Positions 3,216 to 62,371 of a stretch of 64,000 nucleotides of DNA are shown here, piece after piece. The notes under the pieces were generated by a model that saw only the letters and a program-made list of their open reading frames with translations, did no database searches and was not told where the DNA came from. The number at the start of each line of letters is the position of its first letter. Position 1 is the first letter of the stretch. Origin of the DNA: Escherichia phage SF; sequence record MH359124. One strand, 5' to 3'. The translations under genes were made by a program, and so were the position numbers.

Positions 3216-3964
3216 TTTTTATGGTCCTTTTCTACTAATGTTAAAGCAATACCACGTTCAACAGGAATCATTTGCATAATAGAATCCAATGTGTATTGAC
3301 TCTTTACTAGTGAATGGTTTATCTGATAGAATGTAAAAATCTCATCAGGGTTAACTAACAATTTAAAAACCTCTAAGATATCAGTGTATGTTTTAACATG
3401 ACGTTCACAACAACCTAATCTAAGGGTCAAATTAATAGGGTTCATAGAAGCAATAACCTTCTCGAGCGAGTCAATGTCTATTGCTTCTATTACTTGGATT
3501 TGGTTCTCTTCAGTCAAATCATTCCATGGGTACCATTCATCATTATAATATATTTCTTTTATGTTTTCACTTATCATTAATGCTTTATTGTCATAAAACT
3601 TTTCAGGGAAAGAAAAACGTATTTTTATACCAGCAACATCAAGTTCAGGTTCGACTAGTTCTTTTTGATATATCTCAAATGGTGCAGTTTTTTCTTTAGA
3701 GCATTTAGGGCAAGTGAAAATAACAGGAACTTTTGTTTTGCCTATAGAGCCTGCAAAAACTTGCAGGAATATAAATGGTTGCCATGTTTTAGGGTACTCG
3801 CCAAAATAATCATCAATCAGATCGGCAATTATTTCTTTTTGTTCTTGCGGCGAACGATGTTCGATATCATTTCTAACTAGTAAAAAGTCTCTATAATCCG
3901 CCACAGTGAACGGCTTAAAACGATGAACACCATCCGGTAATTTACAACGAATTATATTAGCCAT
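3212..3964 (-). CDS. 51: gp51 baseplate hub assembly catalyst
   Basis: 250-aa ORF divergent from gp26 across a late-promoter region; synteny. Confidence 0.8.
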
Positions 3965-4638: not shown

Positions 4639-5036
4639 TGTCTAATATCAATAAACTTTATTCAGATATCGACCCAGAAATGCGTATGGATTGGAACAAG
4701 GACGTTGCTCGTTCTGTAGGACTTCGTTCTATTAAAAACAGTCTTCTTGGCATAGTGACAACTAGAAAAGGCTCACGCCCCTTCGACCCTGAATTTGGAT
4801 GCGATTTGGTCGACGAACTTTTCGAGAACATGACACCACTTACAGCCGATACGATTGAGCGTAATATCCAGGCAGCTGTTCGTAACTATGAGCCACGCAT
4901 CGACAAACTTTCTGTAAGTGTAACGCCAGTATATGATGACTATACGGTTATAGTAGAGATTAGATTTTCGGTCGTAGACAACCCTGACGATATTGAACAA
5001 ATTAAACTTCAGTTAGCGTCAAGCAATAGAGTGTAA
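4638..5036 (+). CDS. 25: gp25 baseplate wedge subunit (gpW/lysozyme-like fold)
   Basis: 132-aa ORF (T4 gp25 is 132 aa), translationally coupled to gp26 (ATGA overlap). Confidence 0.9.
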   Translation: MSNINKLYSDIDPEMRMDWNKDVARSVGLRSIKNSLLGIVTTRKGSRPFDPEFGCDLVDELFENMTPLTADTIERNIQAAVRNYEPRIDKLSVSVTPVYDDYTVIVEIRFSVVDNPDDIEQIKLQLASSNRV

Positions 5037-5116
5037 TGCTTCAAGGCAACCTATGTATAATGGTTTTAGGTCCTTCCGATACAGCCGGGAGATTATTAGT
5101 TAAAAGAGAGAACATT

Positions 5117-5530
5117 ATGAAGCTGGAAGATTTACAGGAAGAGTTAGACGCAGACTTAGCTATTGATATGACAAAGTTGCAATATGAGACGGCGAATAAT
5201 GTTAAGTTATACAGCAAATGGCTACGTAAGCACTCATTTATTCGTAAAGAAATGTTGCGTATAGAGACTCAGAAGAAAACTGCTCTAAAAGCAAGATTAG
5301 ACTACTACTCGGGACGAGGTGACGGTGATGAATTCAGTATGGACCGATACGAGAAATCTGAAATGAAAACTGTCCTGGCTGCCGATAAAGATGTACTTAA
5401 AATAGAGACTACTTTACAATACTGGGGAATTTTACTTGAGTTCTGTAGTGGTGCACTTGACGCAGTTAAGTCTCGTAGTTTTGCACTTAAACATATCCAG
5501 GATATGCGAGAATTTGAAGCGGGGCAATAA
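5117..5530 (+). CDS. uvsY: UvsY recombination mediator
   Basis: Translation from internal ATG 5117 gives MKLEDLQEEL...KLQYE..NNV.LYSKWL...DYYSGRGDGDEFSMDRYEKSEMKTVL, near-identical to T4 UvsY (137 aa); RBS AGAGAG upstream. Confidence 0.92.
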   Translation: MKLEDLQEELDADLAIDMTKLQYETANNVKLYSKWLRKHSFIRKEMLRIETQKKTALKARLDYYSGRGDGDEFSMDRYEKSEMKTVLAADKDVLKIETTLQYWGILLEFCSGALDAVKSRSFALKHIQDMREFEAGQ

Positions 5531-5754
5531 TGCGTTATTCAATTGAAGATGCCTTTAATAATGATGAAGAATTTGAAACTGAAATTAAATTCTTAATGGA
5601 AAAGTATCGTCTACGACGCCAGGATATTCGTATTCTGGCAGACCATCCTTGTGGCGAAGACGTCCTTTATATTAAAGGGAAGTTTGCTGGGTACATCGAC
5701 GAGTATTTTTATACAAAAGATATGGGTATCGATATGTGCATGCGATTTGTATAA
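5530..5754 (+). CDS. uvsY.-1-like small protein
   Basis: 74-aa ORF coupled to uvsY stop (ATGA overlap); position as in T4. Confidence 0.6.
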   Translation: MRYSIEDAFNNDEEFETEIKFLMEKYRLRRQDIRILADHPCGEDVLYIKGKFAGYIDEYFYTKDMGIDMCMRFV

Positions 5755-5786
5755 ATAGATATGTAATTTCAACTTAGGAGGCAATC

Positions 5787-5954
5787 ATGTCAGATAAGAT
5801 TTGTGTTGTCTGTAAAACTCCAATCGATTCTGCATTGGTTGTTGAAACAGACAAAGGACCAGCACATCCTGGACCTTGTTATAATTATGTCCAACAAATG
5901 CCGGTTTCAGAAAGTTCAGAAGAGCAATTGAACGAAACCCAACTTTTACTATAG
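5787..5954 (+). CDS. uvsY.-2-like small Cys-rich protein (55 aa; not in ORF track)
   Basis: Manually translated: MSDKICVVCKTPIDSALVVETDKGPAHPGPCYNYVQQM...; RBS AGGAGG 7 nt upstream; followed by a hairpin and T-run. Confidence 0.5.
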   Translation: MSDKICVVCKTPIDSALVVETDKGPAHPGPCYNYVQQMPVSESSEEQLNETQLLL

Positions 5955-5980
5955 TGTTACCTTTTTTGCCTATGGTTTTT

Positions 5981-6010
5981 GGCCCTTCCAAAAAGGTCGG
6001 GCCTTTTTTT
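5981..6010 (+). terminator. putative rho-independent terminator after uvsY.-2
   Basis: GGCCC...GGGCC hairpin followed by TTTTTTT between convergent genes. Confidence 0.45.
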
Positions 6011-47288: not shown

Positions 47289-47362
47289 GGCCCTGTAGCT
47301 CAACGGTTAGCAGCAGTCCCCTCATAAGGGAAAGGTTACCAGTTCGAATCTGGTCTGGGTCA
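47289..47362 (+). tRNA. tRNA with anticodon CAT (Met/Ile2 type)
   Basis: Manual cloverleaf: acceptor GGCCCTG/CTGGGTC (one mismatch), D-arm GCTC-AACGGTTAG-CAGC, anticodon loop CTCATAA, T-arm ACCAG-TTCGAAT-CTGGT; 6 nt before the next tRNA. Stems are imperfect. Confidence 0.6.
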
Positions 47363-47368
47363 TATATT

Positions 47369-47445
<77 letters not shown>

Positions 47446-54975: not shown

Positions 54976-55466
54976 TGATACATAAAATTCACTGGACAAA
55001 CATGGACGATGGCGACGAAGGTATTTCATATTATTCTATAGATTGGACAGGATGTCCATCCTACTTAGTGAAACATATTTGCCAAGAATTTAAAATCGAC
55101 CAGCCAGCAGGTATTATCGTGAACAGATACATTAATGGATATCAACCTATCGATGAAGTAATACGAACAACTCAAGCTGAGCTTGAAAGGTTTTTCAATA
55201 AGTGTCAATGGATAACAGGATGGATTATATTTGTACCGTCTATATGGTTTTTCAGTACTAAGGTGAGTTCTTTCGGTTTTGTTGATATTATTGCTATCTT
55301 ATTAGCATCTAGTATCATAAGTGTTGTTGGTGGCATCATTGGCGGCGGTACCGCCGCCATCATTATTAATCTTATTAAAAGTAGTTTACAAGAACATAAA
55401 GACAAGATAAAGGCCAAGAATAATGAAGTTGAACGTTTTATTACCGAATGCAGGAATTTGAGATGA
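54975..55466 (+). CDS. membrane protein with N-terminal soluble domain and 2 TM, ECR-family paralog
   Basis: C-terminus ERFITECRNLR; TM segments WIIFVPSIWFF and IIAILLASSIISVVGGIIGG; ATGA coupling. Confidence 0.65.
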   Translation: MIHKIHWTNMDDGDEGISYYSIDWTGCPSYLVKHICQEFKIDQPAGIIVNRYINGYQPIDEVIRTTQAELERFFNKCQWITGWIIFVPSIWFFSTKVSSFGFVDIIAILLASSIISVVGGIIGGGTAAIIINLIKSSLQEHKDKIKAKNNEVERFITECRNLR

Positions 55467-55699
55467 GTATAGCAATTTACATTAAATCAGAATCATGTGA
55501 TTCTTATCTGTACACATACGATAAAGATGTGTCAGAAGAAAAAATCAAAGACGACCTTAATATGGACCTTGATTTGTTCCGTCCTATTTCAGATTACAAA
55601 CTAGCATTCTCCGATAGCGAGCGTCCTGATAAAGAAACTCGCATTGAAGAATTTATGTCCGAATTAATGGCCAAATCATGGGACCGAGATGATGAGTAA
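55463..55699 (+). CDS. hypothetical acidic protein
   Basis: ATG 55463 with RBS AGGAA, overlapping the upstream stop; alternative start 55448. Confidence 0.5.
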   Translation: MSIAIYIKSESCDSYLYTYDKDVSEEKIKDDLNMDLDLFRPISDYKLAFSDSERPDKETRIEEFMSELMAKSWDRDDE

Positions 55700-56147
55700 G
55701 AAAAATAAAGTGAAAGAACTATCAGCCGGTATTATTTTCATGACAAAAGATAAAGAGTTATTCATGGGCCGTGTGACTGGTTCTCGTCCTAAAGGTTCTT
55801 TAACTCATCGGTGGGATATTCCTAAAGGCCGTGTCGAACCTGGCGAATCTCCTATTGAAGCCGCTATTCGTGAATGCGAAGAAGAAACTGGGTTTACACA
55901 ATATGACCCTGCCTTCCTGAAAGACCTAGGTGAACATCATTACTCAGACAATAAGAATATTCATCTGTTCCTATATACCATCCCTGTAGAGCACGAGCAA
56001 TTCAGAAACAGTGTTTGTAATTCCTATCATACATTCCCAGACGGACGACAGATTCCTGAATTTGATGCATTCGCTTTAATTAAACCTTCTCAATGGGAAT
56101 ATGTAATGGGCAAATCATTATATAAGGTGCTCACTACCCTCCTATAA
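55689..56147 (+). CDS. nudE: NudE Nudix hydrolase
   Basis: Nudix box GRVEPGESPIEAAIRECEEETGF; 152 aa; directly upstream of e, as T4 nudE (e.1). Confidence 0.88.
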   Translation: MMSKKNKVKELSAGIIFMTKDKELFMGRVTGSRPKGSLTHRWDIPKGRVEPGESPIEAAIRECEEETGFTQYDPAFLKDLGEHHYSDNKNIHLFLYTIPVEHEQFRNSVCNSYHTFPDGRQIPEFDAFALIKPSQWEYVMGKSLYKVLTTLL

Positions 56148-56181
56148 GTAATAAATACCTCCTATAAACGTGGGAGGTATT

Positions 56182-56670
56182 ATGAATATATTTGAAATGC
56201 TTCGTAATGACGAAGGTCTTAGACTGACTTTATACAAAGACACTGAAGGCTTTTGGACGATTGGCATAGGCCATTTAGTAGCAAAGAACCCATCTTTAGC
56301 CGTAGCTAAAGCTGAACTTGACAGAATGATCGGACGTAAATGCGACGGTACAATTACCCTTGATGAGGCTGAAAAGCTATTTAATGAAGACGTTGATAAA
56401 GCTGTTCGCGGAATCTTGGGTAATGCTAAACTTAAACCGGTATATGATTCTTTAGATGCAGTTCGTCGATGTGCGTTGGTCAATATGGTCTTCCAAATGG
56501 GTGTAGCAGGCGTCGCTGGTTTTACTAATTCTCTTCGTATGCTTCAACAGAAACGTTGGGACGAAGCGGCAGTAAATCTAGCCCAATCTAAATGGTATCG
56601 TCAGACACCTAATCGCGCGAAACGCGTAATCTCAACATTTAAAACAGGAACTTGGAAAGCGTATATATGA
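56182..56670 (+). CDS. e: lysozyme (endolysin e)
   Basis: [32 protein letters not shown]...[19 protein letters not shown]...[16 protein letters not shown], near-identical to T4 lysozyme; RBS GGGAGG. Confidence 0.97.
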
Positions 56671-56948
56671 AAACATATAGTGAATTTTTATCAGAATCTA
56701 TTCTTAACGAAGCTACTGACACCTTTGCAACTAAGCTAGGTGCAGCTTTGGTTGAAGCCGAAAGTCTATTAGCACGTATTTCTGAACTTGCTAGTAAGAT
56801 AGATACTCGCAAATTTGAACGTACAAGCGATATCGTTAAGCTTGAAGCCTTGTTGCGTATGTGCGATAAACCGGAAGAAATCGCCAAGAACGGTTCGCTG
56901 ATGAAACAACGTCTTGAAAAATATATTTCAGGCGCTTCAGAAAAATAG
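56667..56948 (+). CDS. internal-protein-like ([14 protein letters not shown]), 93 aa
   Basis: CTS leader; ATGA coupling to e; at the T4 ipIII position. Confidence 0.7.
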
Positions 56949-56949
56949 T

Positions 56950-56999
56950 GTTTACTTCCTCCAAGGGTTTTGATACTATACATTCATCAACTACTTGGA
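56950..56999 (+). promoter_or_regulatory. early promoter for denV with inverted repeat enclosing -10 and RBS
   Basis: GTTTACttCCTCCAAGggttttgaTACTATacattcatcaactaCTTGGAGGaa. Confidence 0.65.
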
Positions 57000-57006
57000 G
57001 GAAATT

Positions 57007-57420
57007 ATGACTCGTATCAATTTAACACTTGTTTCTGAACTGACCGACCAACATCTTATGGCTGAGTATCGTGAATTACCACGCGTATTTGGTGCAGTCC
57101 GTAAACATGTTCAAAACGGTAAACGTGTAAAGGATTTTAAAATCTCTCCAACATTTATCTTAGGCACAGGTCACGTAACATTCTTTTACGACAAACTCGA
57201 ATTTTTACGTTTACGTCAAATCGAGCTAATCGCTGAATGCTTGAAACGTGGTTTCAAAATCAAGGACACAACTGTCCAGGATATTTCCGACATCCCTGCC
57301 GAATTTCGTAATAATTATATCCCGACTGAAGCGTCCATTGCGATAAGTCAAGCACGCTTAGACGAAAAAATTGCCCAACGTCCTACTTGGTACAAATACT
57401 ATGGTAAATCAATTTACTAA
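57007..57420 (+). CDS. denV: DenV endonuclease V (pyrimidine dimer DNA glycosylase)
   Basis: [34 protein letters not shown]...[22 protein letters not shown], matching T4 DenV (138 aa); early promoter upstream. Confidence 0.95.
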
Positions 57421-57451
57421 GGAAAAAGGTGGCGATGGTAAAGCTTAAACA

Positions 57452-57481
57452 GTTTACGCTTAAGTATTAATATGGTATAAT
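57452..57481 (+). promoter_or_regulatory. early promoter GTTTAC-18-TATAAT for the ipII-like gene
   Basis: aGTTTACgcttaagtattaatatggTATAATtac. Confidence 0.65.
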
Positions 57482-57511
57482 TACTCTATCAAAACAAACA
57501 AGGAAACAAAA

Positions 57512-57814
57512 ATGAAAACATATCAAGAATTTATTACCGAAGCGCGAGTGAGTGCAGGTAAATTAGAAGCCGCTATAAATAAAAAGGCCCATTCATTTCA
57601 CGATTTGTCCGATAAAGACCGTAAGAAACTTGTAAGCCTTTATATTGACAAAGAGCGTATTCTCGCTCTTCCTGGCGCTAATGAAGGTAAACAGGCCAAG
57701 CCTTTGAATGCTGTCGAAAAGAAAATTGATAACTTTGCTTCTAAATTCGGTATGTCTATGGATGACCTTCAGCAAGCGGCTATCGAAGCAGCTAAAGTAA
57801 TTAAAGGTAAATAA
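57512..57814 (+). CDS. ipII: internal protein (ipII-like, 100 aa)
   Basis: MKTYQEFITEA CTS; 100 aa matches T4 IPII length; early promoter upstream. Identity as IPII versus another IP is uncertain. Confidence 0.7.
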   Translation: MKTYQEFITEARVSAGKLEAAINKKAHSFHDLSDKDRKKLVSLYIDKERILALPGANEGKQAKPLNAVEKKIDNFASKFGMSMDDLQQAAIEAAKVIKGK

Positions 57815-57816
57815 CA

Positions 57817-57846
57817 GTTTACTTTCTCCTAGAATTGTGATAGTAT
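57817..57846 (+). promoter_or_regulatory. early promoter upstream of a long structured leader and IP gene 58086
   Basis: GTTTACtttctcctagaattgtgaTAGTATattc; transcript would traverse repeat copy A. Confidence 0.55.
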
Positions 57847-57984
57847 ATTCATAATTACTTGGAGAGGTAAAATGACTCAATGAAAAAATTTTAATGAAGC
57901 CACACTGGTATAAGTATTAAGGCAAAAATATTTACATTCAAATAACATGGGAACAAGCTGGACCTCATGATTCTATGAGGGATT

Positions 57985-58085
57985 CCCGCCAACCTGTAAT
58001 AAGGTCGAGCCCAAGTGCGGTAATGGGTAATACAGAAATGGACAATTCGCGTGCCATGGAATGGCACAAACCTAGAGAGAACAAA
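57985..58085 (+). repeat. direct repeat copy A (~100 bp) immediately upstream of IP gene 58086
   Basis: ccaacctgtaataaggtcgagc[c/g]caa..tgcggtaatgggt...cgtgcca.ggaatggc.caa...agagaa...aaATG shared with copy B; internal hairpin GTGCCA-tggaa-TGGCAC. Confidence 0.7.
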
Positions 58086-58415
58086 ATGAAAACATATCAA
58101 GAGTTTATCACTGAAGTTACATTATCTGCGGAACAGAAAGCTGCTATCGAAGAAGGTAAAAATCCCAAAGTAACATATAAAGTAAATAGTAAAGGCGTTT
58201 TTGATGGCTTGGTTCAAGACCCTGAATTGAAAAAAGCTCTTTCTAAAACTAATGCGTACTTTGCTCCTAAATTTAACACAGCCGGTGTACTTATTGGATT
58301 GGATGTATTCAACTCTAAAGGTGTTCTATCTAATGCCTTTGGTTATGCCGCTAACAAAATTACTAAAGCCGCATGGGAATCCAATACCAAACAAGCTCAA
58401 AAGCCTAGAGTATAA
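58086..58415 (+). CDS. internal-protein-like (CTS MKTYQEFITEV), 109 aa
   Basis: CTS leader at the internal ATG of ORF 57975..58415; flanked by paired ~100-bp direct repeats. Confidence 0.75.
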   Translation: MKTYQEFITEVTLSAEQKAAIEEGKNPKVTYKVNSKGVFDGLVQDPELKKALSKTNAYFAPKFNTAGVLIGLDVFNSKGVLSNAFGYAANKITKAAWESNTKQAQKPRV

Positions 58416-58475
58416 TTCTTGCCTAATAAAGGGAAACGCAACCTCTCCTTATGAACGTCGAGTCCTCTGAGTGAT

Positions 58476-58587
58476 GTACCTTTTCCAACCTGTAATAAGG
58501 TCGAGCGCAATGCGGTAATGGGTTTACATAGCGAGTCGAAGGACATAACACGTGCCACGGAATGGCCCAACCTAAAAGAGAAACTAA
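58476..58587 (+). repeat. direct repeat copy B (~110 bp) immediately upstream of ORF 58588
   Basis: Same motif as copy A with small indels; hairpin GCCA-cggaa-TGGC shows compensatory changes. Confidence 0.7.
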
Positions 58588-59127
58588 ATGAGAACATTTT
58601 TAACTGGACCTTATCTATCCCTGATGAATGCTTTTACACACCATTCTGATGCTAGAGTAGAAGAAATTTGTAAGAATGGTTATATCCCGCCATTTGAAGA
58701 CGTACTCAAGCAGTACTGTACACTTCGTTTAGACGGCGGCAGACAATCAGGTAAATCAACTGCAGTAACTAATTTTGCGGCTAATTGGCTGCACGACGGT
58801 GGAACAGTTATTGTTCTTTCTAATACTTCAGCTTATGCTAAAATTTCTGCTGGCAACATTAAAAAAGAATTTTCTCGTTATTCTAGCGATGATATTCGAT
58901 TCCGTTTATTTACTGATTCTGTCCGTAGTTTTATTGGCAATGAAGGTTCTAAATTCCGTGGATTAACGCTTTCTCGTATTCTGTATATAATTGACGAGCC
59001 TATTAAAGCTCCTGATATGGATAAGATTTACAATGTCCATATTAAATCAGTACAGCACTGCTGCAAAAGCAAATATTGCATCAGCGGTACTGCTCGTCCT
59101 CAATTTTTTGTGATTGGACTGCAATGA
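58588..59127 (+). CDS. P-loop NTPase (Walker A GGRQSGKST, Walker B ILYIIDE)
   Basis: 179-aa ORF with Walker motifs; at the T4 vs.8 position by synteny. Confidence 0.7.
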   Translation: MRTFLTGPYLSLMNAFTHHSDARVEEICKNGYIPPFEDVLKQYCTLRLDGGRQSGKSTAVTNFAANWLHDGGTVIVLSNTSAYAKISAGNIKKEFSRYSSDDIRFRLFTDSVRSFIGNEGSKFRGLTLSRILYIIDEPIKAPDMDKIYNVHIKSVQHCCKSKYCISGTARPQFFVIGLQ

Positions 59128-59432
59128 TGACCACTATTGAAGTTTTTGAGTATTGTTATAACAGCCCAGTATGCAATAAAAGGGCTCTTGTAGAAAATTA
59201 CGAGATTTACCATTTTAAACCTAAACGATACCGTTTGACTAAAGGTCCGTTCGCAGGGCAGCAGGTTCTTTGTACTGCTCCTAATGCACGGTTGATGACT
59301 AGTATTCCGCATTTCAAAATGGAATTTATTGATGGGCCATTTAAGGGATTAATCACTCAAAGTTTAATGGCGTTTAATTCCGACCCATTTTTGATTAAAG
59401 AAAAATCTTGGATAAATTTATTTTCTAATTGA
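59124..59432 (+). CDS. hypothetical Cys-containing protein
   Basis: ATGA coupling; 102 aa. Confidence 0.55.
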   Translation: MMTTIEVFEYCYNSPVCNKRALVENYEIYHFKPKRYRLTKGPFAGQQVLCTAPNARLMTSIPHFKMEFIDGPFKGLITQSLMAFNSDPFLIKEKSWINLFSN

Positions 59433-59438
59433 GGTTAT

Positions 59439-59801
59439 ATGAAAGCATATCAAATTCTTGAAGGTGCACATAAAGGCACTATTTATTTTGAAGACGGTAC
59501 TCAAGCCCGGATTATCGTCTCTAAGACTTTTAAAGAAGACGCTATTGTAGACCCGGAAATTTTCTACGGTTTGAATGCCCGTGAAATTGAAATTGAACAT
59601 CAACCTAAAGTTAAAATTGAAGGTGGTCAACACCTGAACGTTAACGTTCTGCGTCGTGAAACTTTGGAAGATGCAGTTAAGCATCCAGAAAAATATCCGC
59701 AGCTGACCATCCGTGTATCCGGTTATGCAGTTCGCTTTAACTCTCTGACTCCGGAACAGCAGCGCGACGTTATCGCTCGTACCTTTACTGAGAGTCTATA
59801 A
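59439..59801 (+). CDS. autonomous glycyl radical cofactor (GrcA/YfiD-like)
   Basis: C-terminal [59 protein letters not shown] carries the RVSGY glycyl-radical signature, matching E. coli GrcA and the T4 Y06I protein (from memory). Confidence 0.9.
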
Positions 59802-60025
59802 TGGCTAAATTGATTATAGAAGGGTCTGAAGATGTTTTAAAATGTTTTGCCGCCTGGTTTAGTTGCTCAGGCGAGCAATCATTCATTGAAGCATTTAGAA
59901 CGTGTGATATTACTGGAAAATATCCGTCAACCGATATCACCGTACGCGGATATGGTATTAATGAGCCTATCCAATTGGTCGAATATGACCTTGCCACAGA
60001 TGAGGAAATTCCTTATGTCGATTGA
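59801..60025 (+). CDS. hypothetical protein
   Basis: 74-aa ORF, ATGA coupling to the GrcA-like gene. Confidence 0.55.
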   Translation: MAKLIIEGSEDVLKCFAAWFSCSGEQSFIEAFRTCDITGKYPSTDITVRGYGINEPIQLVEYDLATDEEIPYVD

Positions 60026-60281
60026 AGACATCAAAGGCTACAAGCCGCATACCGATGATAAAATCAGTAAAGTGAACGCTATTAAAGATGCAGAAGTCCG
60101 TCTTGGATTGTTGTTTGATGCTCTGATTGAAGAAGCATATATCTTGAAAGAAAATGAAACAGAGCAACAAACCAAAGAAGATATGGATGCAGTGCAGGCT
60201 CTTAAGTATGCTAAGCAACATCTAAAAGAGGCCAGCATGTGGGCATGTCGTGCAGTATTTCGACCTGAGGAAAAATACTAA
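60015..60281 (+). CDS. small protein at the T4 vs.4 position (candidate Acb2-like cyclic-nucleotide sponge; synteny only)
   Basis: ATG 60015 with RBS GAGGAA; 88 aa; third ORF upstream of regB as T4 vs.4. Functional call is positional inference. Confidence 0.5.
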   Translation: MSIEDIKGYKPHTDDKISKVNAIKDAEVRLGLLFDALIEEAYILKENETEQQTKEDMDAVQALKYAKQHLKEASMWACRAVFRPEEKY

Positions 60282-60496
60282 TGGCTTCTACTATTACCGG
60301 GTTATTAGACTTTCAAGAAAAGGTCAACAAAATTTGTAGTGAATACTTAAAGTATCTTGAAGAAGACCTTGAAGATTGTAAGGAAGAAGGCGAAGAAGAC
60401 TATGCTGACCAGCGTAGTCGCCAAATCGAAGAGATGAGGCATTTCGCCGATATGGTATCTAAAGAATCTTGGGCTTTAACTCCATTTTATCAATAA
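60281..60496 (+). CDS. hypothetical acidic protein
   Basis: 71-aa ORF, ATGA coupling. Confidence 0.55.
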   Translation: MASTITGLLDFQEKVNKICSEYLKYLEEDLEDCKEEGEEDYADQRSRQIEEMRHFADMVSKESWALTPFYQ

Positions 60497-60500
60497 AGTT

Positions 60501-60550
60501 GTTTACTTCTCCTCTAGATGTGTTACTATAGACCTGTCAACTAGAGGAGA
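60501..60550 (+). promoter_or_regulatory. early promoter for regB with inverted repeat CCTCTAG...CTAGAGG
   Basis: GTTTACttctCCTCTAGatgtgtTACTATagacctgtcaaCTAGAGGag. Confidence 0.65.
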
Positions 60551-60557
60551 AATCAAA

Positions 60558-61016
60558 ATGACTATCAATTCAGACGTTTTTATCCGCCGTAATAAACTCC
60601 GTCGAATCTTTGAAACGGAGTTCCGCAAAATAAATGCTGGTATAAAAGATGCTGCAAAGTCTCTTGGACTACCAGGCTTTCATATCAAGTATTCTCAACA
60701 TCTCTTAGATCGTGCTATCCAGAGAGAAATAGATGAGAATTACGTTTTTGAATTATTTCGTAAAGTAAAAAATCATGTTAAAGAAGTTGCAGAATTTTTA
60801 TCAATGCCTGCACGTCCAGATGTTGATGAAGATTTTGTCGAAGGTGTCGAATATCGCCCAGGCCGTTTAGAAATAACTGACGGAAATCTTTGGTTAGGAC
60901 TTACAGTTTGTCGCGAAAATCCGGCATTCAAAATGAAGACTCTCCAATGCAGAATGGCTATTATTAACAGTAAACGACTACCAGGAAAAGCTTCTAAAGC
61001 AGTGATTAAAATCTAG
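60558..61016 (+). CDS. regB: RegB site-specific endoribonuclease
   Basis: MTINSDVFIRRNKLRRIFETEFRKIN...HIKYSQHLLDRAIQREIDENYVFELF...GVEYRPGRLEITDGNLWLG...LQCRMAIINSKRLPGKASKAVIK matches T4 RegB; early promoter upstream. Confidence 0.93.
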   Translation: MTINSDVFIRRNKLRRIFETEFRKINAGIKDAAKSLGLPGFHIKYSQHLLDRAIQREIDENYVFELFRKVKNHVKEVAEFLSMPARPDVDEDFVEGVEYRPGRLEITDGNLWLGLTVCRENPAFKMKTLQCRMAIINSKRLPGKASKAVIKI

Positions 61017-61024
61017 AGGTAAAC

Positions 61025-61567
61025 ATGAGAAAAGCACTACTCGCTGGTCTATTTGCTCTTTCATTATCAGCACATAGCTCCGAGCATACTTTTAGTAATG
61101 TCCAACTCGATAACTTGAATTATGCTTATCAGTTTGGGGAACAGTTTTCTAAGGACGGAAAATTTAAAACGCATGAAAATATGCATAAGAAAGGACTTGG
61201 ATACATAATGGCCGCAATACTATGGCAGGAATCATCTGCCGGTATTAATCTTAAAGATAAGAAAGGTCACCATGCGTATGGAATGTTCCAAAATTATCTA
61301 CCAACAATGAAGGCAAGAATTAACCAGCTTGGTTATAATATGTCTGATGCCCAAATTAAGAAAATGCTATCTAAGCGGTCTAATTCAGCCAGATGGGCTT
61401 ATATCGAATTTTCTTATTGGTTAAATATACATAACGGGGATATAAGAAAAGCTATATCCTCATATAATGCGGGATGGAAGACAAGTGCTGGAAGTAAATA
61501 TGCTTCTGAAGTCCTAGAAAAGGCTAATTACCTTAAATCAAATAAACTACTGGAAATAAAAGAATGA
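61025..61567 (+). CDS. secreted lytic-transglycosylase-like protein (signal peptide plus SLT-type ES...GMFQ motif)
   Basis: N-terminal signal peptide MRKALLAGLFALSLSAHS; motif LWQESSAGINL...AYGMFQ; at the T4 vs.1 position. Confidence 0.65.
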   Translation: MRKALLAGLFALSLSAHSSEHTFSNVQLDNLNYAYQFGEQFSKDGKFKTHENMHKKGLGYIMAAILWQESSAGINLKDKKGHHAYGMFQNYLPTMKARINQLGYNMSDAQIKKMLSKRSNSARWAYIEFSYWLNIHNGDIRKAISSYNAGWKTSAGSKYASEVLEKANYLKSNKLLEIKE

Positions 61568-61911
61568 CCAAAATGTTGGCTTTAATAGTTGGCTTGGTTT
61601 CATTTAACACTCTTGCTAATACTACATATACTGATGTAACGGAGTATACAAACAGAACGGCGTCTGATTATTGTGGTAAAAGTCAAGAGTGTAAAGTAGA
61701 TTTTTCACAAAAATTGTTATATGCATATAAAGACGGAGAAAAAGATGGGGCGTCTAGTAGGTTCAAGGCGTCTACCTTAATTAAAAGATACTATAAAAAA
61801 TGGCAAATATTAGAATGCTCGGTGGCGGAACCTAAAGATAAGGCAGCATGCAATTCTATGGTGGACCGTCTAGTTGACTCTTATACTAGAGGACTTGCAG
61901 CAAGTGATTAA
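61564..61911 (+). CDS. 115-aa protein with hydrophobic N-terminus (size and position match T4 vs)
   Basis: Synteny (regB, vs.1, vs) and length 115 aa; no motif. Confidence 0.5.
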   Translation: MTKMLALIVGLVSFNTLANTTYTDVTEYTNRTASDYCGKSQECKVDFSQKLLYAYKDGEKDGASSRFKASTLIKRYYKKWQILECSVAEPKDKAACNSMVDRLVDSYTRGLAASD

Positions 61912-62371
61912 AAACTATATCAAGGGCGATATTGTCGCCCTGTTTTCTAAAGGTAATAATATCGCTCACGGGTGTAATTGTTTTCATACAATGGGCGCTG
62001 GTGTGGCAGGACAATTAGCAAAGGCTTATCCAAAAATTCTGGAAGCCGATAAACTTCAAACCGAATTCGGAGACGAGTCTAAACTCGGGACTTATTCGGT
62101 TTATGAAAAATATTTTAAGACACATAAAGCTTATTGCTTTAATCTTTATACACAGTTTGAGCCTGGACCTAATTTTGAGTACTCTGCTTTAATGAATTGT
62201 ATAATAGAATTAAATGAATTCGGAAAGAATAAGATAACAAAACCTGTAATTTATATGCCAAGAATTGGTGCAGGTATCGGTGGTGGAAACTGGGATGTCA
62301 TCGAAGAGATTTTAGATACGTATTCCACTAAACTAGAAATTGTGATTGTTGATTGGGAACCATTATTATGA
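61874..62371 (+). CDS. macro-domain-like protein (possible ADP-ribose-binding/processing fold)
   Basis: Gly-rich motifs GDIVALF...HGCNCFHTMGAGVAGQLAKAYP and MPRIGAGIGGGNWDVIEEIL; 165 aa. Start may be downstream; overlaps the upstream ORF by 38 nt. Confidence 0.55.
   Translation: MTLILEDLQQVIKNYIKGDIVALFSKGNNIAHGCNCFHTMGAGVAGQLAKAYPKILEADKLQTEFGDESKLGTYSVYEKYFKTHKAYCFNLYTQFEPGPNFEYSALMNCIIELNEFGKNKITKPVIYMPRIGAGIGGGNWDVIEEILDTYSTKLEIVIVDWEPLL

What the first reader, a model, noticed from the sequence alone, without database searches (positions are those of the whole stretch)
57985..58587. Pair of ~100-bp direct repeats with a conserved hairpin flanking an internal-protein gene
Copies at 57985..58085 and 58476..58587 share ccaacctgtaataaggtcgagc...tgcggtaatgggt...cgtgcca(t/c)ggaatggc...agagaa...ATG, each ending at a start codon. 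The hairpin GTGCCA-tggaa-TGGCAC in copy A versus GCCA-cggaa-TGGC in copy B suggests selection on RNA structure. This could be a structured 5' leader (translational operator or processing site), a small RNA, or cassette borders for IP gene exchange.
Basis: seen in the sequence. Interest (0 to 1): 0.65.

Follow-up and report, generated by a model that had tools for sequence, protein, structure and literature searches.

The report
Conserved phage RNA domain, present twice
The two repeats are two different versions of a roughly 100-base folded RNA element that is conserved in over a thousand T4-like and unrelated phages, often beside their tRNA genes, has no Rfam family or known function, and lies twice here because an internal-protein gene was recombined in between.

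Summary
The copies lie at 57958-58085 and 58437-58587, share an identical 22-nt core and each end at a start codon.

They are not a recent duplication. Copy A is the Tequatrovirus/HX01-type allele and copy B the usual Mosigvirus allele of one element, which in T4-like phages sits just upstream of vs.8. In T4 itself it is annotated as the vs.8 N-terminus.

The core folds as a three-way junction: P1, then P2 ACCU(GURRNA)AGGU, YCNRGC, a small P3, GCGGUAA, then P1'. In T4-like phages a covarying closing helix P0 and a hairpin Pa enclose it.

The same core occurs in Vequintavirus, Sf11/KP591P1-like 46-kb phages, Ivi-like 45-kb phages and metagenomic phages. There it usually lies within about 1 kb of same-strand tRNA genes, sometimes between long spacer hairpins or just before a terminator. 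It has no Rfam match and was not found in bacterial genomes.

The two-copy layout is best explained by recombination between an HX01-like and an F31-like arrangement at the 17-nt identity gaacaaaATGAAAACAT.

Function is unknown. My best guess is a discrete structured RNA acting through a conserved partner.

The parts
57512..57814 (+). ipII-like internal protein gene. It came in together with copy A.
   Evidence: phrog_7857 internal virion protein, E = 4.5e-55. It is contiguous with the spacer and copy A at 97-98.6% identity in HX01, ZQ3 and Tequatrovirus W143/N2.
57815..57957 (+). Spacer with a PeSL-like early promoter (TTTACT-N17-TAGTAT at 57818-57846) and a 3-codon ORF. It is not part of the repeat.
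   Evidence: Read. Absent in NHEP36, present in HX01. It differs by one base from the T4/PST PeSL promoter consensus TTTACW-N17-TAYWAT.
57958..58035 (+). Copy A, folded domain (type A allele). Putative P0 is CTG 57958-57960 with CAG 58033-58035. Pa hairpin is 57960-57986 (CCTCAT 57963-57968 with ATGAGG 57975-57980).
   Evidence: Sequence. Pa was predicted by the single-sequence fold and by the type A alignment fold. P0 in type A is inferred by analogy with type B and is weak, because type A sequences are too similar to covary.
57988..58028 (+). Copy A core three-way junction. P1 is 57988-57990 with 58026-58028. P2 is ACCT 57992-57995 with AGGT 58002-58005, loop GTAATA. J2/3 is CGA. P3 is GC 58009-58010 with GC 58017-58018. 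J3/1 is GGTAATG 58019-58025.
   Evidence: Model R1 match 57979-58037, 69.6 bits, E = 2.6e-20. Pair counts on 52 distinct family members.
58040..58085 (+). Copy A 3' extension, specific to T4-like phages: GGA at 58040-58042, hairpin GTGCCA/TGGCAC 58051-58067 with loop TGGAA, purine-rich AGAGAGAA, then the ATG at 58086.
   Evidence: GGA and GGAA are invariant in all T4-like copies listed.
58079..58095 (+). Inferred recombination junction gaacaaaATGAAAACAT, shared by the vs.8 start region of HX01-type phages and the start region of this IP gene in F31-type phages.
   Evidence: HX01 reads ...agagagaacaaaATGAAAACATTTTTAACT. F31 reads ...aataggaacaaaATGAAAACATATCAGGAG. The window reads ...agagagaacaaaATGAAAACATATCAAGAG.
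58086..58415 (+). IP-like gene (109 aa, starts MKTYQEFI) lying between the two copies.
   Evidence: phrog_3966. The same gene lies directly upstream of copy B, with no copy A, in Mosigvirus F31.
58437..58533 (+). Copy B, folded domain (type B allele, the resident copy). P0 is CGC 58437-58439 with GCG 58531-58533. Pa is a long imperfect hairpin, 58441-58477.
   Evidence: Pair counts on A3. P0 pair types are CG9/AU3/GC3/UA2/UG1 and GC10/CG6. The outer Pa pair is AU9/CG9. 96.5% of cells are paired against 25-35% when partners are slid.
58485..58522 (+). Copy B core three-way junction. P1 is CC 58485-58486 with GG 58521-58522. P2 is ACCT 58488-58491 with AGGT 58498-58501. P3 is GC 58505-58506 with GC 58512-58513. 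J3/1 is GGTAATG 58514-58520.
   Evidence: Model R1 match 58475-58532, 66.1 bits, E = 3.6e-19.
58541..58587 (+). Copy B 3' extension: GGA at 58541-58543, hairpin GCCA/TGGC 58554-58566 with loop CGGAA, AAAGAGAAA, then the ATG at 58588.
   Evidence: helix 6: three pairs invariant, the fourth A-U in 13 of 16 scored sequences.
58588..59127 (+). vs.8 homologue (small P-loop protein of unknown function), the gene the element normally precedes in T4-like phages.
   Evidence: phrog_1488, E = 2.3e-77; weak AAA_14 and terminase-N Pfam hits. RB32 and T4 annotation.

Best explanation
Each repeat is one copy of a conserved, non-coding, structured RNA domain of virulent enterobacterial phages.

Shown: the core is a three-way junction, P1 / P2 ACCU-GURRNA-AGGU / YCNRGC / small P3 / GCGGUAA / P1'. 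In T4-like phages a long-range closing helix P0 and a hairpin Pa enclose it. A GGA-containing hairpin and the ribosome-binding region of vs.8 follow.

Shown: the same core sits in or next to tRNA operons, on the tRNA strand, in several unrelated phage groups.

Inferred, with good support: copy B is the resident Mosigvirus-type copy in front of vs.8. Copy A is the Tequatrovirus/HX01-type allele. It was retained when an HX01-like arrangement (ipII - spacer - element A - vs.8) recombined with an F31-like arrangement (IP - element B - vs.8) at the 17-nt identity gaacaaaATGAAAACAT. That left element A as the leader of the IP gene.

Inferred, weaker: the domain works as RNA, as a discrete folded module. 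It is released from, or stabilised within, polycistronic tRNA or early transcripts. Its invariant unpaired nucleotides bind a conserved host or phage partner, so it would act as a decoy, sponge or RNP component. It would not be a dedicated translational operator of the downstream gene.
For: Family and conservation:
- 1105 phage records match copy A, 621 of them over at least 80% of its length.
- In RB32, T4, W143, HX01 and F31 the element is upstream of vs.8.

Structure:
- On 52 distinct cores, 87% of cells are paired against 79% in shuffles and 26-42% when partners are slid. The covariation score is 0.225 against 0.079 (0 of 500 shuffles reach it).
- The inner P1 pairs are CG40/GC11 and CG35/GC9/UA4/AU2/GU1. 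The closing P2 pair changes A-U to G-C in two lineages.
- For the full type-B domain, 96.5% of cells are paired against 25-35% slid, with P0 and Pa covarying.

Non-coding:
- In 39 of 43 T4-like copies the downstream frame is closed by a stop inside or just after the element.
- The alleles differ by 1-nt indels.

Breadth and context:
- Model R1 separates members (at least 41 bits) from everything else (at most 18 bits).
- Same-strand tRNA genes lie 45-1000 nt away in at least 9 non-T4 lineages.
- The module is bracketed by long spacer hairpins in 46-kb phages.
- A terminator follows right after it in L054, L086 and L129.
- In Ivi it lies between two terminators, which would fit a transcription unit of its own.
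- No vs.8 homologue is nearby outside T4-like phages.

Origin of the pair:
- Copy A is 94-98.6% identical to the Tequatrovirus/HX01 version and about 79% to the Mosigvirus version.
- Only about 4 of 822 records have the full two-copy layout.
Against: - There is no expression or processing data for this element. The T4 literature I could search does not mention it.
- Single-sequence folding energies are not better than shuffles (z = -0.65 and +1.11).
- P2 and P3 are almost invariant, so they rest mainly on one covarying pair and on consistency. An alternative pairing of CCUGUA with UGCGG cannot be fully excluded.
- In T4-like phages the element is always an mRNA leader and is 6-10 kb from the tRNA genes, so a purely cis-acting role there remains possible.
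- The partner is unknown.
- The recombination scenario is reconstructed from present-day genomes, not observed.
Confidence: 0.6

Rival explanations
1. Cis-acting 5' leader or translational operator. The element, especially its 3' hairpin and GGA motifs, would control ribosome access or mRNA stability for the gene that starts right after it: vs.8 for copy B, the IP gene for copy A. A CsrA-like protein might bind it.
For: - In every T4-like phage the element ends 15-45 nt before a start codon.
- Two GGA motifs, one in a hairpin loop, are invariant.
- Where copy A precedes the IP gene, its hairpin has been lengthened to 6 bp by different substitutions in the window and in NHEP36.
Against: - The conserved core also occurs where no gene follows: before intrinsic terminators (L054, L086, L129), between tRNA genes (L122), and upstream of a promoter in Vequintavirus.
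- The 3' hairpin is absent outside T4-like phages.
- The hairpin shows no compensatory change.
Confidence: 0.2
2. Processing element of polycistronic tRNA or early transcripts. It would be either a recognition structure for a host RNase or a small self-cleaving ribozyme that defines transcript ends next to tRNAs.
For: - Association with tRNA operons on the same strand.
- The size and architecture, a 3-way junction with invariant junction nucleotides, resemble small ribozymes.
- Phage tRNA-adjacent ribozymes have a precedent in the theta ribozymes (PMC10879173).
Against: - No match to any Rfam ribozyme family, even at E = 10.
- The element is 45-1000 nt from tRNAs, not within 5 nt as theta ribozymes are.
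- By inspection (no descriptor search was run) I saw no HDV-like nested pseudoknot and no C-containing L3 loop in the core.
- The distance and orientation relative to tRNAs vary, upstream in some phages and downstream in others.
Confidence: 0.12
3. DNA-level recombination cassette border of the PeSL type: a repeated sequence that promotes shuffling of IP genes.
For: - The locus is a known hyperplastic IP region.
- Two-copy layouts flanking an IP gene arose at least twice, in TH58/NHEP36/window and in the Klebsiella phage L005.
- Tandem copies exist in Karamvirus.
Against: - There is no sigma-70 or early-promoter hexamer pair inside either copy, which is the defining part of PeSLs (PMC4122927).
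- Helices covary, which argues for selection on a single-stranded fold.
- The element is on the transcribed strand in every context.
- The inferred crossover lies in the start-codon region, not in the repeat.
- Most IP genes lack it.
Confidence: 0.06
4. Protein-coding N-terminal extension of the downstream gene, as in the T4 RefSeq annotation of vs.8 and as the 146-aa ORF 57975-58415 in this window would suggest.
For: The frame is open through the element in T4, in window copy A, in NHEP36 copy A and in L009.
Against: - The frame is closed in 39 of 43 copies.
- The alleles differ by 1-nt indels.
- The core is conserved at all three codon positions across unrelated phages where no ORF continues.
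- The candidate ATG lies inside the Pa stem.
Confidence: 0.02

Closest known systems
T4 rnaC / rnaD (species 1 and 2 stable RNAs) and similar stable RNAs in phage tRNA regions
   Same: They are small structured phage RNAs of unknown function, co-transcribed with tRNA genes. In the 46-kb phages this element sits in the same array as an rnaD-like 3' end.
   Different: There is no sequence similarity: the core is absent from T4 rnaC/rnaD. It has no tRNA-like 3' end. In T4-like phages it lies 6-10 kb away from the tRNA cluster, in the vs.8 leader.
PeSL (promoter-early stem-loop) mobile regulatory cassettes of T4-type phages (PMC2839356, PMC4122927)
   Same: Both are short repeated non-coding sequences in hyperplastic regions next to variable small genes. 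Both are linked to modular shuffling.
   Different: PeSLs are defined by an early promoter plus a stem-loop. This element has no promoter, is GC-richer, has a multi-helix fold with covariation, and is conserved far outside T4-like phages. A PeSL-like promoter does lie in the spacer upstream of copy A (57818-57846).
Theta (minimal HDV-like) ribozymes next to phage tRNAs (PMC10879173)
   Same: Both are compact structured RNAs found beside tRNA genes in phage genomes.
   Different: Theta ribozymes abut the tRNA (within 5 nt), have the HDV double pseudoknot with a catalytic C, and occur mainly in gut Bacteroidota and Bacillota phages. This element shows none of these features by inspection, and Rfam's ribozyme families give no match.
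HK022 put RNA (cis-acting antiterminator RNA)
   Same: Both are phage-encoded structured RNAs in a transcript leader that act without being translated.
   Different: No core motif is present in HK022. This element is often at the end of operons just before terminators, which is the wrong place for a processive antiterminator.
E. coli rRNA segments: 23S H44 loop and H42 strand, and the 16S 530 loop
   Same: GUAAUA and GGUCGAG occur within 25 nt in 23S rRNA. GCGGUAAU equals 16S 527-534 (from my own knowledge). Both are in the same sense as the element.
   Different: The spacing and helix order differ. The P2 loop varies among family members (GUAAAA, GUGAAA, GUAGCA, AUAAUA). The resemblance is post hoc and may be chance.

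Membership tests
Any Rfam 15 family | A covariance-model match at the gathering score, or even at E <= 10 | tested here: not met
   There was no match over 57940-58600 at E <= 10. In 55000-62000 only unrelated chance hits appeared. The whole window at gathering score gave only two tRNAs.
PeSL cassette | Early promoter TTTACW-N17-TAYWAT (T4/PST type) inside the repeat | tested here: not met
   The promoter scan found + strand sites only at 57453-57481 and 58963-58991, outside both copies. The consensus is from PMC4122927.
PeSL cassette | Located at the borders of genes that differ between close relatives | tested here: inconclusive
   This is true for the IP gene in this window and in L005. But in most phages the single copy lies next to the conserved vs.8.
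T4 rnaC/rnaD-type stable RNA | Sequence homology to rnaC or rnaD | tested here: not met
   The core is absent from T4 70,908-71,171.
T4 rnaC/rnaD-type stable RNA | Encoded within a tRNA gene cluster and released as a stable small RNA | tested here: inconclusive
   The position in tRNA operons holds for at least 9 non-T4 lineages but not in this window, where the tRNAs are at 47289-47445. Stability cannot be tested with these tools.
Theta / HDV-like ribozyme | Within 5 nt of a tRNA end; nested double pseudoknot with a catalytic C in J4/2 | tested here: not met
   The nearest tRNA is at least 45 nt away. No Rfam ribozyme family matches. By inspection only, the P2 loop has no C to form P1.1. Criteria are from PMC10879173.
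HK022-type put antiterminator | Sequence or structure related to putL/putR, placed near the promoter and upstream of terminators | tested here: not met
   There is no P2 motif or core in the HK022 genome. Several members lie at operon ends.
Protein-coding sequence (vs.8 N-terminus, as annotated in T4) | An open frame conserved among homologues | tested here: not met
   The frame is closed in 39 of 43 copies, and the alleles differ by frame-shifting indels.
Structured RNA in general | Base pairs maintained by compensatory change | tested here: met
   P1, the closing pair of P2, P0 and the outer pair of Pa all covary. 0 of 500 shuffles reach the observed score, and slid controls drop to 25-42% paired.
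CsrA-type binding site (3' extension only) | Two GGA motifs 10-60 nt apart, one in a hairpin loop (criterion from my own knowledge) | tested here: inconclusive
   The sequence pattern is present and invariant in T4-like copies. Binding cannot be tested here.

The most novel reading that the evidence does not exclude
The element is a previously unrecognised class of functional phage RNA. It is present in T4 itself, hidden under a CDS annotation, and is shared by T4-like, rV5-like, Sf11-like and Ivi-like phages. It would act in trans on a conserved host component. Examples would be a decoy for a tRNA- or ribosome-directed defence or host factor (hinted at by its home in tRNA operons and its rRNA-like invariant loops), or a new small ribozyme.
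Probability: 0.3. Interest if true: 0.85.

Novelty: new variant of a known kind. Interest (0 to 1): 0.62.

Why it matters
A 2010 review of T4 post-transcriptional control stated that no riboswitch or trans-acting regulatory RNA had been functionally characterised from T4, and that rnaC and rnaD still had no known role (PMC3014915). This element is a strongly constrained, covariation-supported RNA fold. Its 40-nt core is nearly identical across phage groups that otherwise share no detectable DNA similarity around it. In non-T4 phages it is tied to tRNA operons, it matches no Rfam family, and I found it in none of the bacterial genomes searched. Because it exists in T4 and many lab phages, its function can be tested directly by deletion, by point mutation of the invariant junction bases, by Northern blot and by pull-down. 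It also corrects the likely mis-annotated start of T4 vs.8. Finally, it documents a concrete short-homology recombination event that reshuffled an internal-protein gene.

Tried and rejected
- Rfam at several stringencies gave nothing. A weak hit to the RNase P S-domain (11.6-15.8 bits) on the separate 'type S' motif was judged to be chance.
- HK022 put RNA: no shared motif.
- T4 rnaC/rnaD: unrelated.
- Theta / HDV-like ribozyme: criteria not met.
- PeSL: no promoter inside the repeat.
- A link to vs.8: no vs.8 homologue lies near the element outside T4-like phages.
- E. coli genomes: no BLAST match. Bacterial species genomes: 0 hits with the strict pattern. A second, looser scan was a poor choice and returned only chance hits, none with the P2 half.
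- 'Type S' motif (CCTGTAAAAAGGTGGGAATGTTGCGGTAA plus a terminator, after a lambda-like terminase gene) scores only 14-16 bits with the model, like random coding hits, so it was excluded.
- L066/L069 (AAGGTCGAGCGCAGCGCGGTAAGG..., beside tRNAs) lack P2 and are not hit by the model, so they were excluded.
- Alternative fold (ACCUGUA with UGCGGU, enclosing a GGU/GCC hairpin): less consistent, because column 33 varies freely and a G18-to-A change is uncompensated.
- A P1 extension TGTA/TACA in copy B conflicts with the covarying outer pair of Pa and was dropped.
- Minimum-free-energy z-scores are uninformative.
- Literature searches by sequence and by keywords found no description. The catalogue of about 8,500 unnamed IMG/VR candidate RNAs (PMC10690425) could contain it, but its supplementary files are not held.
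- tRNA-Tyr anticodon-loop mimicry (CUGUAA): rejected because the helix register does not give a 7-nt loop and the 'anticodon' varies.

Full report
**Locus.** The window is a T4-like (Mosigvirus-type) genome; the best match is Escherichia virus TH58 at 97%. On the + strand the order is:
- nudE 55689-56147
- lysozyme e 56170-56670
- an internal-protein (IP) gene 56652-56948
- denV 56995-57420
- an ipII-like IP gene 57512-57814
- a 143-nt spacer
- copy A
- an IP-like gene 58086-58415
- copy B
- vs.8 58588-59127
- vs.7, then a GrcA-like gene

.

**Observation.** Both repeats exist at the stated coordinates and each ends at a start codon. They share 22 identical bases (CCAACCTGTAATAAGGTCGAGC). Overall they are 79% identical, with several indels. 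The 19-nt core occurs twice in the window against 0.02 expected. A covariance model built later finds only these two sites in 64 kb, at 69.6 and 66.1 bits, with the next hit at 11 bits.

**The pair is not a local duplication.** Copy A matches 1105 phage records. In RB32, T4, W143, HX01 and F31 the homologous sequence is a single copy immediately upstream of vs.8. There are two alleles:
- Type A, found in Tequatrovirus and some Mosigviruses such as HX01. Copy A is 94-98.6% identical to it.
- Type B, found in most Mosigviruses and many Klebsiella, Salmonella and Enterobacter T4-like phages. Copy B belongs to it. Copy A is only about 79% identical to these.

In T4 itself the element (about NC_000866 64,793-64,912) is annotated as the first 40 or so codons of vs.8. 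That frame is closed by stop codons in 39 of 43 T4-like copies, and the alleles differ by 1-nt indels. The element is therefore non-coding, and the T4 start is probably mis-called.

**How the pair arose.**
- HX01 has denV - ipII - spacer - element A - vs.8, and its vs.8 begins ATGAAAACATTTTTA.
- F31 has ... IP - IP(109 aa) - element B - vs.8. That IP gene's leader reads ggaacaaaATGAAAACATATCA.
- The window, TH58 and NHEP36 have ipII - (spacer) - element A - IP(109 aa) - element B - vs.8.

The two parental arrangements share gaacaaaATGAAAACAT (17 nt) exactly where the window switches from one to the other (58079-58095). A single short-homology crossover there explains the layout. Only about 4 of 822 matching records have the full layout, and about 30 of 1105 have two copies of any kind. 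A second, independent two-copy layout flanking another IP gene exists in a Klebsiella phage (L005). Karamviruses carry a degenerate tandem copy.

**Structure of the core.** On 52 distinct sequences from all lineages (alignment A2), the proposed three-way junction is supported as follows.
- P1 flanks the core. Its two inner pairs are CG40/GC11 and CG35/GC9/UA4/AU2/GU1, with one unpaired sequence each.
- P2 is ACCU-hexaloop-AGGU. Its closing A-U becomes G-C in two separate lineages.
- P3 is GC/GC around a variable 5-6-nt loop.
- Overall, 87% of cells pair against 79% in shuffles and 26-42% when partners are slid. The covariation score is 0.225 against 0.079, and 0 of 500 shuffles reach it.

The unpaired junction bases are nearly invariant: the P2 loop G-U-R-R-N-A, J2/3 Y-C-N-R, and J3/1 GGUAA preceded by GC.

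**Structure of the full T4-like domain.** For the type B allele (18 representatives, alignment A3) a long-range closing helix P0 covaries strongly (CG9/AU3/GC3/UA2/UG1 and GC10/CG6). The upstream imperfect hairpin Pa has an outer pair AU9/CG9. In total 96.5% of cells pair against 25-35% when slid.

The longer stem in copy A comes from one extra substitution, and NHEP36 lengthens its copy A stem by a different substitution. Single-sequence folding energies are unremarkable.

**Breadth.** Pattern scans of viral and metagenome contigs, scored with model R1, show the same core (at least 41 bits; everything else at most 18 bits) in:
- Vequintavirus
- 46-kb phages related to Shigella phage Sf11 and Klebsiella phage KP591P1, plus the 70-kb Klebsiella phage Pylas
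- 45-kb phages like Escherichia phage Ivi
- several orphan metagenomic phage contigs

.

The same overall plan (closing helix, preceding hairpin, P1, P2, P3) can be read in the Sf11-like and Vequintavirus versions. The element was not found in 5,426 E. coli genomes. The strict pattern was not found in 185,579 bacterial and archaeal species genomes. No Rfam family matches, even at E = 10. No paper in the searchable library holds the sequence or describes it. It could be one of about 8,500 unnamed candidates in PMC10690425, which I could not check.

**Context outside T4-like phages.**
- In at least nine lineages the element lies 45-1000 nt from tRNA genes on the same strand. It is upstream of them in Vequintavirus and the 46-kb phages, downstream in L054, L105, L106, L113 and L129, and between two tRNAs in L122.
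- In the 46-kb phages it is one module in an array of small structured RNAs separated by long hairpins. An rnaD-like 3' end and tRNAs follow.
- In L054, L086 and L129 an intrinsic terminator follows within about 40 nt.
- In Ivi it lies between two terminators, which would fit a transcription unit of its own.
- No vs.8 homologue accompanies it outside T4-like phages.

These contexts argue against a role limited to regulating the downstream gene. They favour a self-contained RNA module.

**Mechanism.** What is shown: a conserved multi-helix RNA fold with invariant unpaired nucleotides, found only in phage sequences in every collection searched, and with tRNA-operon linkage in non-T4 phages.

What I infer (about 40% within the overall explanation): it is released from, or persists within, polycistronic transcripts and binds a conserved partner.

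Rivals are:
- a cis-acting leader for vs.8 or the IP gene. The 3' extension, with two invariant GGA motifs, looks like a CsrA-type site.
- a processing signal or new small ribozyme
- a DNA-level recombination cassette
- coding sequence, which is essentially excluded

An unexplained resemblance of the invariant loops to E. coli rRNA is recorded but not relied on. GUAAUA plus GGUCGAGU occur in 23S around positions 1093-1112, and GCGGUAAU equals 16S 527-534 (my own knowledge).

**Verdict.** The finding is real and more interesting than a local repeat. It is two alleles of what appears to be an undescribed phage RNA family, juxtaposed by a reconstructable recombination event. The specific hairpin argument and the cassette-border idea were not.

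Noticed in passing
T4 NC_000866 64,793-64,912 (locus L079 about 3795-3913, minus strand): The T4 RefSeq vs.8 CDS starts at an ATG inside the Pa hairpin of this RNA element and reads through it. The frame is closed in 39 of 43 homologous copies, so the first 40 or so codons of T4 vs.8 are probably a mis-annotation.
   Followed up: yes
L040 about 5000-6000, L050, L059, L064, L043 (46-kb Sf11/KP591P1-like phages and Klebsiella phage Pylas): These phages carry arrays of several small structured RNA modules separated by long hairpins (CACAACAGGTAAGAGCA...TGCTCTTTCCGTTGTG). A 3' end resembling T4 rnaD (gcggcgcaccaaatt) and tRNA genes follow. Another module of the array matches Felixounavirus, 157-kb Salmonella and Klebsiella phages, and phiEcoM-GJ1. 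This suggests a wider set of shared tRNA-operon RNAs.
   Followed up: partly
window 57815-57957: A 143-nt spacer lies between the ipII stop and copy A. It holds a PeSL-like early promoter (TTTACT-N17-TAGTAT, 57818-57846) and a 3-codon ORF. It is present in HX01, absent in NHEP36 and partly present in a Klebsiella phage, so it looks like an independently mobile piece.
   Followed up: partly
window 58051-58067 versus L082 (NHEP36) about 2616-2632: Where copy A precedes the IP gene, its 3' hairpin is lengthened from 4 to 6 bp by different substitutions in two phages: GTGCCA/TGGCAC here and GCGCCA/TGGCGC in NHEP36. TH58 and all copies next to vs.8 keep 4 bp.
   Followed up: partly
window 58040-58061 and 58541-58562: Two GGA motifs 15-20 nt apart are invariant in all T4-like copies: AUGGAC or AAGGAC, and the hairpin loop NGGAA. 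The pattern resembles a dual CsrA-binding site.
   Followed up: no
window 57996-58025 versus E. coli 23S (L083 1150-1175): The P2 loop GUAAUA and the following GGUCGAG also occur within 25 nt in 23S rRNA (the H44 loop and the adjacent strand). GCGGUAAU equals the 16S 530-loop sequence. This may be chance, because the P2 loop varies in the family.
   Followed up: partly
L088-L099, L109-L128 (for example L089 3300-3430): A separate conserved motif (hairpin, then CCTGTAAAAAGGTGGGAATGTTGCGGTAA, then an intrinsic terminator) lies right after a lambda-like large terminase gene and before a Rha-like gene in 20-50-kb contigs. It shares the P2 and GCGGUAA strings but scores only 14-16 bits with the family model.
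   Followed up: partly
L066 2453-2580 and L069 190-330: A conserved non-coding stretch, AAGGTCGAGCGCAGCGCGGTAAGGAAGCGAAGCGGTTACATCC..., lies next to tRNA clusters in a 166-kb Citrobacter phage and a 235-kb phage. It lacks P2 and is not a member of this family. Its identity is unknown.
   Followed up: no
window 59439-59801: This ORF has a C-terminus like an autonomous glycyl-radical cofactor (GrcA; T4 vs.6). It lies three genes downstream of the element.
   Followed up: no
window 47289-47445: These are the only tRNA genes in the window (Met-CAT and Arg-TCT). They lie 10.5 kb upstream of the element. In non-T4 phages the element lies within 1 kb of tRNA genes.
   Followed up: yes
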